Shown: in pieces, positions 24,464 to 42,085 of the stretch
How positions within the stretch are numbered: position 1 is the first letter of the stretch
Layout: each line of letters starts with the position of its first letter
Assembly: GCF_030013595.1 (NCBI RefSeq)
Contig: NZ_CP122768.1
Direction: 5' to 3' (one strand)
Origin: Escherichia coli
GTDB lineage: Bacteria > Pseudomonadota > Gammaproteobacteria > Enterobacterales > Enterobacteriaceae
DNA: 64,000 nt
Translations under genes and position numbers: made by a program
Notes under the pieces: model-generated
What the model saw: the letters and a program-made list of their open reading frames with translations, nothing else
What the model was told of the DNA's origin: nothing
The model's database searches: none

Positions 24464-28144
<3,681 letters not shown>

Positions 28145-28170
<26 letters not shown>

Positions 28171-28690
28171 TCAGCAACCCCGGTATCAGTTCATCCAGCG
28201 CGGCTGCTTTGTTCATGGCTTTGATGATATCCCGTTTCAGGAAATCAACATGTCGGTTTTCCAGTTCCGGAAAACGCCGCTGCACCGACAGGGGGATCCC
28301 GTCGAGAATACTGGCAATTTCACCTGCGATCCGCGACAGCACGAAAGTACAGAATGCGGTTTCCACCACTTCAGCGGAGTCTCTGGCATTCTTCAGTTCC
28401 TGTGCGTCGGCCTGCGCACGCGTAAGTCGATGGCGTTCGTACTCAATAGTCCCTGGCTGGAGATCTGTCTCGCTGGCCTGCCGCAGTTCTTCAACTTCCC
28501 GGCGCAGCTTTTCGTTCTCAATTTCAGCATCCCTTTCGGCATACCATTTTATAACGGCGGCAGAGTCATAAAGCACCTCATTACCCTTGCCACCGCCTCG
28601 CAGAACGGGCATTCCCTGTTCCTGCCAGTTCTGAATGGTACGGATACTCGCACCGAAAATGTCAGCCAGCTGCTTTTTGTTGACTTCCAT
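28145..28690 (-). CDS. nu1: Terminase small subunit Nu1
   Basis: 181 aa, MEVNKKQLADIFGASIRTIQNWQEQGMP as in lambda Nu1. Confidence 0.9.
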
Positions 28691-40258: not shown

Positions 40259-40933
40259 ATGAAAACAATCCATGACATCCGGCGGTCTAACGCCCGAAAA
40301 CTGAGAGATGGTGTTGGAGGGAATTCTTCCTTTGCCACTATGATTGATCGCGAGCCAACCCAGACCAGCAGGTTTATGGGAGATGGTGCTACTAAAAATA
40401 TCGGTGACAGCATGGCACGACACATCGAAAAATGTTTCGACCTGCCTGTCGGATGGCTCGATCAAGAACACCAGACAACGAACATCACAAAAAAACCTGA
40501 TGTTTCAATCACTAATAAACAAATCACATTAGTCCCTGTCATATCATGGGTACAGGCCGGAGCATGGAAAGAAGTTGGATATTCTGAGGTTGATTTGAGC
40601 ACAGCAGAAACGTATCCCTGCCCTGTACCCTGTGGGGAAATGACTTATATCTTGCGGGTGATAGGTGATTCAATGATTGATGAGTACCGCCCGGGAGACA
40701 TGATTTTTGTCGATCCTGAAGTACCTGCCTGCCACGGTGACGACGTTATTGCATTGATGCACGATACAGGTGAAACCACCTTCAAAAGGTTGATAGAAGA
40801 TGGGACACAGCGTTATCTCAAAGCGTTAAACCCAAACTGGCCTGAGCCTTACATTAAGATCAACGGTAATTGCTCTATAATTGGAACTGTGATTTTCTCA
40901 GGAAAACCAAGAAGATACAAAATCAAAGCCTAA
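40259..40933 (+). CDS. cI: CI-like repressor (LexA-like S24 peptidase family, e14 YmfK type)
   Basis: 224 aa; N-terminal HTH and C-terminal S24 autopeptidase domain (VIGDSM Ser motif). Confidence 0.85.
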   Translation: MKTIHDIRRSNARKLRDGVGGNSSFATMIDREPTQTSRFMGDGATKNIGDSMARHIEKCFDLPVGWLDQEHQTTNITKKPDVSITNKQITLVPVISWVQAGAWKEVGYSEVDLSTAETYPCPVPCGEMTYILRVIGDSMIDEYRPGDMIFVDPEVPACHGDDVIALMHDTGETTFKRLIEDGTQRYLKALNPNWPEPYIKINGNCSIIGTVIFSGKPRRYKIKA

Positions 40934-40945
40934 TCAATGTTTATG

Positions 40946-40969
40946 AACCTGCTTCGGCAGGTTTTTTTA
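40946..40969 (+). terminator. Intrinsic terminator after cI
   Basis: Hairpin aacctgc-ttcg-gcaggtt followed by ttttttt. Confidence 0.75.
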
Positions 40970-40972
40970 TAC

Positions 40973-41000
40973 TTGACAATGTACCCACGAGATACATAAT
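40973..41000 (+). promoter_or_regulatory. Candidate pL-like sigma70 promoter with operator-like TGTACCC repeats
   Basis: TTGACA, 16-nt spacer, CATAAT; two direct copies of AATGTACCCA overlapping it. Confidence 0.45.
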
Positions 41001-41083
41001 GTACCCAAGAGAAACAACAAACAGGCAGGACGCCCACGAAGTAGCCGCCTGGGGCATATGAAGTCCAGGATGATTCGTTAGCA

Positions 41084-41108
41084 ACAAAAAAGCGCCCTAC
41101 AGGACGCT
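41084..41108 (-). terminator. Intrinsic terminator downstream of the immunity-region gene
   Basis: Hairpin agcgccct-ac-aggacgct with a U-run on the minus strand. Confidence 0.5.
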
Positions 41109-41147
41109 TAGCTCTTTAACAATCTGGATATCCACAACAGTAGTAAT

Positions 41148-41639
41148 CTACAGATTGCCGTTAAGTTTTCTGGACAACTCCTCAATGGATGGAGGCGATA
41201 CGTAATCCGGATTTTTATTCATCAGAAACTTATTTTCACAGTGGAGGCACCTGCTTTTATGAAAAAGCTCATCTTCGCTAACCGGGAATGGTTGAAGTAT
41301 CGATACTATCTTTTGTCCAAAACATTTTGGGCAAAGATGCATGGTTATGCTGCCACCGTTCACGATTACCTCCTTCGAGTATACAAAAGTACCCGACTCA
41401 AGTTGGTTAAGGATATAGCCTTCCGTCTGAGCCTCAAAGTTTTCGAATTCTGCAATTTTAGCTTTGAGAGAAGCATTTATTTCTTGATAAGAGCCCACCA
41501 GTTCAACGAGAGACACGCATTCGCGCTGAATAGACGCAAGCTTTGAGTTCAGCTCACCAATAGCCGCATTTACTTCAGCTTGAGTTTTTGCCTCGTTCAT
41601 TAGTTTTGCAATCTGGGCTGTTTCACGAATAGCCGTCAT
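41148..41639 (-). CDS. Coiled-coil / zinc-ribbon protein of unknown function (rex-equivalent position)
   Basis: 163 aa from ATG at 41639; predicted N-terminal coiled coil; C-terminal CPKC..CLHC; opposite strand to cI and the early operon. Confidence 0.6.
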   Translation of the reverse strand: MTAIRETAQIAKLMNEAKTQAEVNAAIGELNSKLASIQRECVSLVELVGSYQEINASLKAKIAEFENFEAQTEGYILNQLESGTFVYSKEVIVNGGSITMHLCPKCFGQKIVSILQPFPVSEDELFHKSRCLHCENKFLMNKNPDYVSPPSIEELSRKLNGNL

Positions 41640-41677
41640 TGCTGCCGTTAATTCAGCGATCACATTGAATACTCTTA

Positions 41678-41723
41678 TTGTTGTTGGGGATATCCAGATT
41701 AACCGAATCCTTGTTGTTGGGGA
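41678..41723. repeat. Two 13-bp direct repeats TTGTTGTTGGGGA, 33 bp apart
   Basis: Exact copies at 41678-41690 and 41711-41723, 39-85 bp upstream of the start codon at 41639. Confidence 0.8.
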
Positions 41724-41950
41724 ATAACCAGGTCCACCTCGCCTGATGTGGCTAAAAGCAGGCACATAACAGCTAAGTATTTTCAACCAGAGAGAATCCT
41801 TAGCGTTGTGGTGAATGCGGCTCAGCGCACGCGGGTTAAGGTTGAGGCTGACAGTCGACCTTCTGTGGATACCCACCCGCCTGGTGTGCAACCTTCGCCA
41901 GGCACCGGGAGGCACCCGGCACCACAACTTTATGCTGTGTGTAGTCCTGG

Positions 41951-41996
41951 CGGTACCAGTTTGTACCCTTGCTTCCGGCTGGTACCGTCCTTTTTT
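41951..41996 (+). terminator. Intrinsic terminator in the early leader (tL-like)
   Basis: 9-bp stem cggtaccag / ctggtaccg with 19-nt loop, followed by tttttt; the stem contains operator-like GGTACC/TGTACC motifs. Confidence 0.55.
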
Positions 41997-42085
41997 GCAA
42001 AACAGAGAAGAGCATCACCGGACGACGGGCTCATAACCCAATCCATCCGGGCGGCTGCCACCGCAGGTGTTCTTCTCTGTTTTGT
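41997..42085 (+). ncRNA. Long stem-loop element in the early-operon 5' leader
   Basis: 13-bp perfect inverted repeat aaaacagagaaga / tcttctctgtttt (41999-42011, 42071-42083), extendable with G-U pairs, enclosing a 59-nt GC-rich interior; 49 nt upstream of the yfdP-like start. Confidence 0.4.

What the first reader, a model, noticed from the sequence alone, without database searches (positions are those of the whole stretch)
41084..41760. Unrecognised coiled-coil / zinc-ribbon gene in the rex-equivalent immunity slot, with 13-bp direct repeats upstream
Between the cI terminator (40946-40969) and the early yfdP-like operon sits a single gene on the opposite strand (41148-41639) with its own terminator. 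This is the slot where lambda carries rexAB and other lambdoids carry superinfection-exclusion or abortive-infection morons. The protein has a predicted N-terminal coiled coil and a C-terminal CPKC..CLHC zinc ribbon and matches no family I recognise. Two exact 13-bp direct repeats (TTGTTGTTGGGGA, 33 bp apart) lie in its promoter region. A lysogen-expressed exclusion or defence function is the most plausible role, but that is inference from position only.
Basis: partly seen in the sequence, partly recalled or inferred. Interest (0 to 1): 0.7.

Follow-up and report, generated by a model that had tools for sequence, protein, structure and literature searches.

The report
Rip1-type phage-defence gene in prophage
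The unnamed gene next to the prophage repressor is a distant relative of Rip1, a recently solved prophage protein that senses an invading phage's small-terminase ring, and the two 13-bp repeats upstream belong to a conserved antisense-RNA control region first known from phage P22 sieB.

Summary
The gene, its terminator and the two exact 13-bp repeats are all real. The start codon is most likely GTG 41663, giving 171 aa, not ATG 41639.

The protein is no longer unrecognised. It shares PHROG 1244 with phage HK446 Rip1 ("ring interacting pore 1", PDB 9OOX, bound to the T6 small terminase). A family profile hits 9OOX at E=7e-17, and the AlphaFold model matches it by Foldseek (probability 1.0). All four zinc-ribbon cysteines are invariant.

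The gene lies downstream of the PL promoter and operators, antisense to the early left operon. That is the lambda sieB / HK446 rip1 slot, not the rex slot.

Its upstream 110 bp is homologous to the lambda sieB leader. Read on the + strand, it aligns full-length with the sequenced P22 sas antisense RNA. The two repeats match the repeated CUGUAGGGG elements of sas. Both copies change together across phages.

The conserved sas core precedes more than 20 unrelated cargo genes in lambdoid phages.

Verdict: a new member of a known defence family in a known regulatory setting. The defence role is supported by homology only. Nothing here tests expression, the trigger or the phenotype.

The parts
40259..40933 (+). 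cI-type (LexA/S24 family, ymfK-like) prophage repressor gene
   Evidence: ORF. Annotated as ymfK / LexA family protein in RefSeq and as cI in phage PhiR49_1.
40945..40970 (+). Intrinsic terminator of the cI transcript
   Evidence: 8-bp stem, 4-nt loop, T run.
40973..41016 (+). PL-type early leftward promoter (TTGACA-16-CATAAT, 40973-41000) with two operator-like repeats (40978-40996 and 40998-41016). It reads into the gene in antisense.
   Evidence: 11/12 match, the only promoter-like hit in the region. repeat D2. The GTAC-core motifs resemble those in the cI-cro intergenic region (read directly).
41084..41109 (-). Intrinsic terminator of the rip1-like gene
   Evidence: stem 41109-41090 followed by TTTTTGTT. 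Conserved in loci L010, L011 and L014.
41121..41146 (.). Left arm of a 26-nt inverted repeat. It is an inverted partial copy of the proximal leader (right arm 41675-41700). Function unexplained.
   Evidence: I1 (85% complementary). Conserved around the homologous gene in Klebsiella, Salmonella and Citrobacter-type loci. Not used in the predicted mRNA minimum-free-energy fold.
41148..41663 (-). Rip1-family gene: 171 aa from GTG 41663.
41672..41676 (-). Shine-Dalgarno AAGAG for the GTG start
   Evidence: Read. TAAGAG/AAGAG is conserved at this position in homologous leaders.
41678..41690 (.). Proximal 13-bp direct repeat (- strand TCCCCAACAACAA; + strand TTGTTGTTGGGGA). Predicted 5' end of the mRNA. 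Aligns with the first CUGUAGGGG element of P22 sas.
41696..41701 (-). Putative -10 hexamer TAATCT of the gene's own promoter (inferred)
   Evidence: In alignment A2 the T and A are nearly invariant. Every leader has TAnnnT here (TAAACT, TAAAAT, TATAAT, TAGACT and others). Not detected by the consensus scan because no -35 element is present.
41709..41732 (.). Hairpin carrying the distal 13-bp direct repeat (41711-41723). Aligns with the second hairpin of P22 sas.
   Evidence: 18 distinct stem versions among related leaders. Mismatches are 5 C.A and 0 G.U on the gene-sense strand, which are G.U pairs on the + strand. Also.
41734..41763 (.). Conserved core GCCTGCTTTTAGCCACATCAGGCGAGGTGG (- strand). 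This is the 3' hairpin region of sas-type RNA on the + strand.
41655..41780 (+). Predicted sas-like cis-antisense RNA region (ends approximate, set by alignment to the P22 sas reads). It overlaps the start codon, the Shine-Dalgarno, both repeats and the core.
   Evidence: alignment A4, 53 invariant columns across 6 sequences. The P22 sas sequence comes from PMC13397905. The fold of the window copy alone is not better than shuffles (z=+1.0).

Best explanation
The gene at 41148-41663 (- strand) encodes a 171-aa member of the Rip1 family. It has a small-residue-rich N-terminal helix, a long helix, and a C-terminal four-cysteine zinc-ribbon domain.

By analogy with HK446 Rip1, it would be made at a low level in the lysogen from its own weak promoter while CI keeps PL shut. 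It would stay inert until an infecting phage assembles its ring-shaped small terminase. It would then bind that ring through the C-terminal domain and oligomerise on it. In the only solved example, 12 Rip1 sit on an 11-mer ring. The clustered N-terminal helices would then form a membrane lesion or pore that aborts the infection before progeny are packaged.

The gene sits in the lambda sieB / HK446 rip1 slot, antisense inside the PL operon. Its 110-bp leader is the complement of a P22-sas-type antisense RNA. The two 13-bp direct repeats are the two repeated recognition elements of that RNA. One is complementary to the 5' end of the mRNA. The other is an identical copy presented in a hairpin upstream of the mRNA start.

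When PL fires, on induction or from a superinfecting relative, antisense transcription or a sas-like RNA would silence the gene. The phage would thereby avoid triggering its own defence with its own small terminase (28145-28690).

Shown here: homology, fold, conserved cysteines, position, leader homology to sas, and co-variation of the repeats. Inferred: expression in the lysogen, trigger, pore formation, and antisense silencing.
For: Protein:
- phmmer against the PDB hits 9oox_L 'ring interacting pore 1 (Rip1)' at E=5e-7 over residues 20-142.
- A profile of 21 homologues hits it at E=7e-17 over positions 6-151 of 171.
- BLASTP against HK446 gp37 gives 27% identity, E=4e-11.
- The window protein, HK446 Rip1 and HK620 HkaP all match phrog_1244 at E of 1e-51 to 1e-58.
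- The AlphaFold2 model (pLDDT 88) has 9oox_L and 9oox_M as its only significant Foldseek hits: probability 1.0, TM 0.71 normalised to the target, 28% identity.
- C111, C114, C139 and C142 are invariant.

What Rip1 does:
- PDB title: 'HK446 Rip1 in complex with the T6 small terminase'.
- It senses the small terminase (bioRxiv 10.64898/2026.04.30.721860).

Context:
- PL lies at 40973-41000.
- Rip1 and HkaP lie antisense between N and cIII.
- Homologues in Salmonella and Citrobacter-type prophages also lie antisense in an early operon next to the repressor.

Leader:
- The same core and repeats sit upstream of lambda sieB.
- The + strand aligns full-length with the P22 sas reads.
- sas is a known cis-antisense regulator of sieB translation (PMC12197685).
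- Within a leader the two repeat copies are 10.7/13 identical. Between leaders the figure is 6.6/13.
- The hairpin stems covary.

Distribution: the locus is in 382 of 5,426 complete E. coli genomes and in 4 sequenced phage records (PhiR49_1, PhiR49_1_star, PhiR29_1, PhiR29_2).
Against: - Only 27-28% identity to the one characterised member, so the trigger may differ.
- The N-terminus lacks Rip1's Gly-rich SGAGGALMSAVGAV stretch and its 14-residue extension. It has no classical transmembrane segment, so pore formation cannot be judged.
- No hit in PADLOC v2, although that library predates Rip1.
- The original Rip1 paper could not be read. The mechanism comes from a PDB title, a meeting report and one citing preprint.
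- The gene's own promoter has no recognisable -35 and was not called by the scan.
- The window's sas-like region does not fold better than shuffled sequence (z=+1.0), and its second hairpin carries a G.A mismatch.
- No + strand promoter for a discrete sas-like RNA was found.
- No transcript data were available.
Confidence: 0.7

Rival explanations
1. The fold is the same but the job differs. The protein uses the Rip1 scaffold to sense a different ring-shaped or oligomeric phage protein, such as a portal or another packaging factor. Alternatively it blocks packaging by sequestering the terminase, without making a pore.
For: - Only 27% identity to Rip1, concentrated in the core of the zinc-ribbon domain and the helices.
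- The family is large and diverse: 3,523 representatives at 50% identity with E<=1e-3.
- The N-terminal helix is amphipathic rather than hydrophobic.
- The name 'ring interacting' is not terminase-specific.
Against: The overall architecture, length and N-terminal small-residue-rich helix are conserved. The only experimental structure has a small terminase as partner. Nothing here points to another partner.
Confidence: 0.15
2. It is a type I toxin-antitoxin-like addiction module. A small membrane-damaging protein is held in check by a cis-antisense RNA, and the main role is stabilising the prophage rather than defence.
For: A sas-like antisense region overlaps the Shine-Dalgarno and start codon. 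The protein belongs to a family named for pore formation.
Against: - In the meeting report Rip1 is seen assembled on a phage terminase ring, which suggests it acts on a phage trigger (PMC12908700).
- P22 sas reads appear only in P22-infected samples. Uninfected samples give 0 RPM, but those cells carry no P22, so this says nothing about lysogens (PMC13397905).
- The cassette sits in a slot used by exclusion genes (sieB, rip1).
- No + strand promoter was found apart from PL.
Confidence: 0.07
3. It is a non-defence zinc-ribbon regulator of the phage's own development, for example a nucleic-acid-binding or protein-binding factor acting on the lysis-lysogeny decision. In this reading the repeats are operator sites for CI or a host factor, as the first reader proposed testing.
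For: Zinc ribbons are common in regulators. The gene is next to the immunity region. There are weak NCBIfam hits to RNA polymerase subunit P and to ECs_2282 CxxC (E of 0.02 to 0.13, far below cut-off).
Against: - Full-length homology to Rip1.
- The slot carries more than 20 unrelated cargo genes, so it is not a core regulatory position.
- The repeat type does not appear to follow immunity type. CCCCTACAG is shared by lambda, HK446 and HK620, whose repressor genes are annotated differently, and by the P22 sas RNA. The repressors themselves were not compared here.
- CCCCAACAACAA occurs with both the SfIV_36 cargo and the rip1-like cargo.
Confidence: 0.05

Closest known systems
Rip1 (ring interacting pore 1) of Escherichia phage HK446, gp37 / HK446_037, PDB 9OOX
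   Same: - Same PHROG (1244), similar length (164 vs 171 aa) and the same order of elements: small-residue-rich N-terminal helix, long helix, four-Cys zinc-ribbon domain.
- Foldseek probability 1.0.
- Both are single-gene cassettes lying antisense inside the PL operon of a lambdoid phage.
- Both sit behind the same sas-type leader with two direct repeats about 34 nt apart.
   Different: - 27% identity.
- No 14-residue N-terminal extension and no Gly-rich SGAGGALMSAVGAV motif.
- A longer C-terminal tail (PDYVSPPSIEELSRKLNGNL).
- Repeat unit CCCCAACAACAA instead of CCCCTACAG.
- Sits directly after PL, with no N gene between them. In this window the immunity and early region is SfV/e14-like, while the structural genes are lambda-type by PHROG matches and ORF sizes.
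- Trigger and phenotype untested.
HkaP of phage HK620 (annotated 'putative superinfection exclusion protein')
   Same: Same PHROG and the same slot between N and cIII, in antisense. The leader is identical in type to that of HK446.
   Different: About 28% identity to the window protein. Never characterised, as far as the sources searched here show.
SieB and the sas antisense RNA of phages P22 and lambda
   Same: - Same genomic slot and the same conserved leader: core, two hairpins and repeated loop element.
- A lysogen-expressed abortive exclusion gene from which the phage itself escapes through the antisense RNA (PMC12197685).
   Different: The protein is unrelated. In BLASTP clustering the P22-type and lambda SieB-like cargo proteins, which have hydrophobic N-terminal stretches, fall in clusters separate from the Rip1-like one. 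An Esc-like second product is not established for the window gene.
RexAB of phage lambda
   Same: A prophage-expressed abortive-infection function next to the repressor gene. It is thought to act through the membrane (general knowledge).
   Different: Rex is two genes, co-transcribed with cI from PRM and lying upstream of the cI terminator. This gene lies beyond the terminator and beyond PL, on the other strand, with its own leader.

Membership tests
Rip1 family (phrog_1244) | Full-length sequence homology to HK446 Rip1 | tested here: met
   phmmer E=5e-7. Profile E=7e-17 over positions 6-151 against chain residues 16-160. BLASTP E=4e-11, 27% identity. Same PHROG at E=2e-58 for the window protein and 2e-53 for Rip1.
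Rip1 family (phrog_1244) | Same fold as the solved Rip1 chain | tested here: met
   The AlphaFold2 model has pLDDT 88. Foldseek against the PDB gives 9oox_L and 9oox_M as the only hits with E<=0.001: probability 1.0, TM 0.52-0.71 normalised to the target, 120 aligned columns. The N-terminal ~40 residues of Rip1 are not in the solved chains (124-126 of 164 residues), so that part cannot be compared.
Rip1 family (phrog_1244) | Four conserved cysteines of the C-terminal zinc ribbon | tested here: met
   C111, C114, C139 and C142 are invariant in 21 close homologues and in the alignment with Rip1 and HkaP.
Rip1 family (phrog_1244) | Prophage-encoded single-gene cassette positioned to be expressed in the lysogen | tested here: inconclusive
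   Position and orientation match: antisense in an early operon next to the repressor, in 5 different phage backgrounds. Expression itself was not measured.
Rip1 family (phrog_1244) | Binds and oligomerises on the assembled small-terminase ring of an infecting phage | not testable with these tools
   Known only for HK446 Rip1 with T6 TerS (PMC12908700). No multimer prediction tool was available.
Rip1 family (phrog_1244) | Forms a membrane pore or aborts infection, giving phage resistance | not testable with these tools
   The N-terminal 24 residues are Ala/Thr-rich and amphipathic (mean Kyte-Doolittle 0.1-0.7, hydrophobic moment up to 0.44). This resembles the N-terminus of Rip1 in kind, but it is less hydrophobic and not Gly-rich.
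sas-type cis-antisense RNA (P22 sieB locus) | Sequence homology to P22 sas across its length | tested here: met
   Alignment A4: window + strand 41650-41775 against the 127-nt P22 sas read consensus from PMC13397905, plus lambda, HK446, Salmonella and SfIV. 53 invariant columns, 72% mean column identity.
sas-type cis-antisense RNA (P22 sieB locus) | Lies antisense to the Shine-Dalgarno and start codon of the downstream exclusion gene | tested here: met
   By alignment the region spans the GTG start (41663), the Shine-Dalgarno (41672-41676) and the leader.
sas-type cis-antisense RNA (P22 sieB locus) | Three-hairpin secondary structure | tested here: inconclusive
   P22 and HK446 versions fold into three hairpins (z of -1.8 and -1.2). 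Stems covary across loci, with 14 and 18 distinct stem versions. The window copy alone folds no better than shuffles (z=+1.0), and RNAalifold on the MAFFT alignment recovered only the invariant CCAC/GTGG stem.
sas-type cis-antisense RNA (P22 sieB locus) | Made as a discrete small RNA that switches translation of the target | not testable with these tools
   No transcript data. No + strand promoter other than PL was found.
lambda rexAB-type slot | Located between cI and the cI terminator, same strand, co-transcribed from PRM | tested here: not met
   The cI terminator at 40945-40970 and the PL promoter at 40973-41000 both lie between cI and the gene, and the gene is on the opposite strand.
SieB protein family | Homology to SieB membrane protein | tested here: not met
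   In BLASTP clustering of the cargo proteins, the SieB-like proteins form clusters separate from the Rip1-like cluster. The window protein has no strongly hydrophobic segment in residues 1-75.

The most novel reading that the evidence does not exclude
The sas-type antisense RNA and its leader may not be a peculiarity of P22 sieB. They may be a portable control chassis for a hypervariable defence-gene slot in lambdoid phages. The same core precedes more than 20 unrelated cargo families, including SieB, Rip1-like, ECs1072/SfIV_36, YmfI and ECs_2282 CxxC proteins, most of them uncharacterised.

In the long form of the leader, the two repeated elements co-evolve. The antisense RNA then carries two copies of a loop complementary to the 5' end of the cargo mRNA. 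This would let an induced or related superinfecting phage switch off its own abortive-infection gene. For the Rip1-like gene it would prevent self-triggering by the phage's own small terminase.

A further possibility is that the conserved in-frame Met9 (ATG 41639) gives an Esc-like N-terminally shortened product when the first start is blocked.
Probability: 0.3. Interest if true: 0.55.

Novelty: new member of a known kind. Interest (0 to 1): 0.4.

Why it matters
- It gives a name and a testable mechanism to a 'hypothetical protein' present in about 7% of complete E. coli genomes (382 of 5,426) and in four sequenced phage records.
- It widens the Rip1 family to a branch only 27% identical to the one solved member. 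That divergence helps in asking which parts sense the terminase ring and which phages are restricted.
- It links Rip1-type genes to the antisense-RNA control known from P22 sieB. This suggests how a prophage could carry a terminase-triggered suicide protein without killing its own progeny.
- The conserved sas core is a simple sequence handle. It picks out a slot whose cargo includes two known exclusion genes and many uncharacterised small proteins, which are candidate new defence genes.

Tried and rejected
- Pfam, NCBIfam and PADLOC gave nothing significant for the protein: only coiled-coil noise and sub-threshold zinc-ribbon hits.
- Six of the nine literature searches used were aimed at the original Rip1 paper or the 1993 sieB papers, and neither was found in the library. 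Rip1's mechanism is therefore taken from a PDB title, a meeting report and one citing preprint.
- I considered the 26-nt inverted repeat flanking the ORF as a DNA-invertase site. From memory it does not resemble hix/gix-type sites, and no comparison was run.
- I also considered that inverted repeat as a 5'-3' mRNA pairing. The minimum-free-energy fold of the 607-nt mRNA does not use it. It remains unexplained and may be a relic of two leaders in opposite orientation, as in SfIV.
- I considered a sigma-54 promoter in the core. The GG/GC spacing fits only the minority one-base-shorter variant, so I rejected it.
- I considered the repeats as -35/+1 protein-binding sites. I rejected this because the repeat type does not appear to follow immunity type and the antisense RNA accounts for them.
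- RNAalifold on the MAFFT alignment of leaders recovered only an invariant 4-bp stem. The covariation was then counted with my own script.
- Strand evidence from G.U versus C.A mismatches is mixed. The distal hairpin of the long leaders favours the + (antisense) strand, 5 to 0. The single hairpin of the short leaders favours the gene-sense strand, 4 to 0, but three of those four are one lineage.
Full report
**What is in the sequence**

The - strand carries an ORF ending at 41148. RefSeq calls GTG 41663, giving 171 aa (WP_000559922.1, 'hypothetical protein'). All 21 aligned homologues begin MIAEL..AAM. An AAGAG Shine-Dalgarno lies 8 nt upstream of the GTG.

The gene has its own intrinsic terminator (stem 41109-41090). 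The cI terminator is at 40945-40964. TTGTTGTTGGGGA occurs exactly twice in the 64-kb window, at 41678-41690 and 41711-41723.

**What the protein is**

Pfam, NCBIfam and PADLOC give nothing significant. PHROGs puts the protein in phrog_1244, unknown function, at E=2e-58.

Against the PDB sequences, the single protein hits 9oox_L, 'ring interacting pore 1 (Rip1)', at E=5e-7. A profile of 21 homologues hits it at E=7e-17 over almost the full length.

The AlphaFold2 model (pLDDT 88) has helices 2-24 and 28-79, then a beta-rich domain. Its only significant Foldseek hits in the PDB are 9oox_L and 9oox_M, 'HK446 Rip1 in complex with the T6 small terminase', released 2026-02-04. The scores are probability 1.0, TM 0.71 normalised to the target, and 28% identity.

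tblastn places the solved chain at HK446 gp37. HK446 Rip1 and HK620 HkaP both fall in phrog_1244. BLASTP of the window protein against Rip1 gives 27% identity, E=4e-11. The four cysteines, an SIL motif and a VY motif are invariant across the two branches.

The family is large. A profile search finds 3,523 representatives (50% identity clusters) at E<=1e-3 and 2,033 at E<=1e-10. tblastn also finds members in Pseudomonas Mu-like phages such as D3112, DMS3 and JBD30.

**What Rip1 is known to do**

I could not find the primary paper in the library. Two secondary sources describe it:
[quoted passage not shown] - A 2026 preprint lists Rip1 among systems that sense the small terminase subunit (10.64898/2026.04.30.721860).

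**Where the gene sits**

A near-consensus sigma-70 promoter (TTGACA-16-CATAAT, 40973-41000) lies immediately after the cI terminator. It points rightwards and is overlapped by two AATGTACCCA repeats that resemble the GTAC-core motifs between cI and cro. This is PL/OL. The gene therefore lies inside the early left operon (yfdP, yfdQ, yfdR ... int) in antisense orientation, not in a rex-like position.

HK446 rip1 and HK620 hkaP are likewise antisense between N and cIII. Lambda sieB occupies the same place. Close homologues in Citrobacter-type prophages sit antisense between cI and xis. In a Salmonella prophage the same 684-bp unit (81% identity, window 41770-41087) sits antisense just downstream of cro. 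The unit is therefore a mobile cassette.

Comparison with related phages defines the slot:
- SfV, SfII and mEp460_4F5 share the flanks up to 41079 and from 41734, but carry other genes.
- SfIV and Kati share the flanks up to 41127 and from 41680, including both repeats, but carry an unrelated 144-aa gene.

The exact locus is in 382 of 5,426 complete E. coli genomes and in four sequenced phage records.

**The repeats**

The 140 bp upstream of the gene contains a block, GCCTG(Y)CTTTTNNCCACWTCAGGCNNNGTGG. This block is also present upstream of HK446 rip1, HK620 hkaP, SfIV_36 and lambda sieB.

The ORF that follows the core falls into more than 20 unrelated protein clusters:

| Cargo cluster | Members |
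|---|---|
| Rip1-like | 30 |
| ECs1072/SfIV_36-like | 21 |
| SieB-like | 14, plus lambda SieB as a separate singleton |
| 81-aa SfV type | 11 |
| YmfI, ECs_2282 CxxC and others | smaller clusters |

NCBIfam and PADLOC searches of representatives named only the YmfI, ECs_2282 CxxC and ECs1072 families.

Leaders come in two forms:
- **Long form.** It has two direct repeats 32-35 nt apart with a TAnnnT hexamer between them.
- **Short form.** It has a single hairpin followed directly by the Shine-Dalgarno.

In the long form the repeat unit differs between phages but is the same in both copies of a given leader:

| Repeat unit | Found in |
|---|---|
| CCCCTACAG | lambda, HK446, HK620; its complement CUGUAGGGG occurs twice in the P22 sas RNA |
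| CCCCAACAACAA | this window |
| CCCCAACATAA | one lineage |
| CCCCAACAG | one lineage |
| TTTCCACAGTCAAA | one lineage |

Mean identity is 10.7 of 13 within a leader and 6.6 of 13 between leaders. The distal copy lies in the loop of a hairpin whose stem covaries, with 18 distinct versions.

The explanation came from a 2026 paper that lists the RNA-seq sequence of the P22 sas antisense RNA (PMC13397905). That 127-nt sequence is the reverse complement of this leader. The window's + strand 41650-41775 aligns with it end to end.

sas is a 105-nt cis-antisense RNA that switches translation within sieB and lets P22 bypass its own exclusion (PMC12197685).

The same repeat type is shared by phages whose repressor genes are annotated differently. 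That argues against CI operators, although I did not compare the repressors themselves.

**How it most likely works**

*Shown.* The protein is a Rip1 homologue by sequence and fold. It sits in the sieB/rip1 slot. Its leader is homologous to sas.

*Inferred.*
- In the lysogen CI represses PL, so the gene is transcribed from its own weak promoter. The putative -10 is TAATCT at 41701-41696, and the mRNA would start near 41689, at the proximal repeat.
- The protein waits for the small-terminase ring of an infecting phage, assembles on it and damages the membrane.
- On induction, or on superinfection by a relative, PL-derived antisense RNA pairs with the 5' end of the mRNA and shuts the gene off. 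The hairpin-presented second copy of the repeat would give a fast first contact.
- This would protect the phage from its own small terminase at 28145-28690 (phrog_57).

*Weak points.*
- Identity to Rip1 is 27%.
- The N-terminus is less hydrophobic than Rip1's and is not Gly-rich.
- The window's sas-like region folds no better than shuffled sequence.
- No separate + strand promoter was found.
- There are no transcript or plating data.

**Verdict**

The 'unrecognised' label no longer holds. The repeats have a specific explanation different from the one proposed.

This is a new, divergent member of a known defence family in a known regulatory setting. The most interesting by-product is that the sas core marks a hypervariable cargo slot full of uncharacterised small genes.

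Noticed in passing
window 41775-41998 (+), and 41998-42021 / 42061-42084: Sub-threshold Rfam match to the Salmonella sRNA STnc100 (40.3 bits, gathering score 47, E=6e-7, full model length). A 24-nt inverted repeat follows it, in the roughly 400-nt non-coding stretch between the cassette and yfdP. The stretch is conserved at 95-98% in SfV, SfII, SfIV, Kati and mEp460_4F5. RefSeq annotates it as a frameshifted hypothetical gene. It could be a structured leader of the PL operon in these phages, which have no N gene.
   Followed up: partly
window 41121-41146 and 41675-41700: A 26-nt inverted repeat (85% complementary) brackets the ORF. It is conserved around the homologous gene in Klebsiella, Salmonella and Citrobacter-type loci. 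In SfIV the left copy precedes a small + strand ORF with a strong Shine-Dalgarno. The predicted mRNA fold does not use it, and its function is unexplained.
   Followed up: partly
loci L018-L137 (viral contigs holding the sas core): The ORF just downstream of the conserved core belongs to more than 20 unrelated clusters, including YmfI, ECs1072 and ECs_2282 CxxC families. Most have no known function, and the only PADLOC v2 hit is a weak one (E=9e-5) for the ECs_2282-type protein. They are a candidate pool of new exclusion or defence genes.
   Followed up: partly
short-form leaders, e.g. L003 3156-3243 (-), L008 2016-2103 (-): In the short leader form the invariant GTGG of the core is followed by TATNCT. 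Together they make a TGnTAnnnT extended -10-like motif. The single hairpin (loop TTCTCACACA) has 14 distinct covarying stems.
   Followed up: partly
L011 3001-3516 (Salmonella prophage): The same cassette (core, leader, gene, inverted repeat, terminator; 81% identical over 684 bp) is inserted downstream of cro in the rightward operon instead of after PL. The unit therefore moves as a block.
   Followed up: partly
window 26245-26802 and 26842-28170 (-): The large terminase (phrog_15) is split into two ORFs of 442 and 185 aa. The resident prophage may therefore be defective for packaging.
   Followed up: no
window 41637-41639 (codon 9): Met9 is nearly invariant in the close family and aligns with Met23 of HK446 Rip1, but not with HkaP. 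Given the SieB/Esc precedent at this locus, an in-frame second start is conceivable. It has no clear Shine-Dalgarno.
   Followed up: no
L023 7465-7488 and 8120-8143: One viral contig holds two copies of the sas core 655 bp apart, which suggests two cargo cassettes in tandem.
   Followed up: no
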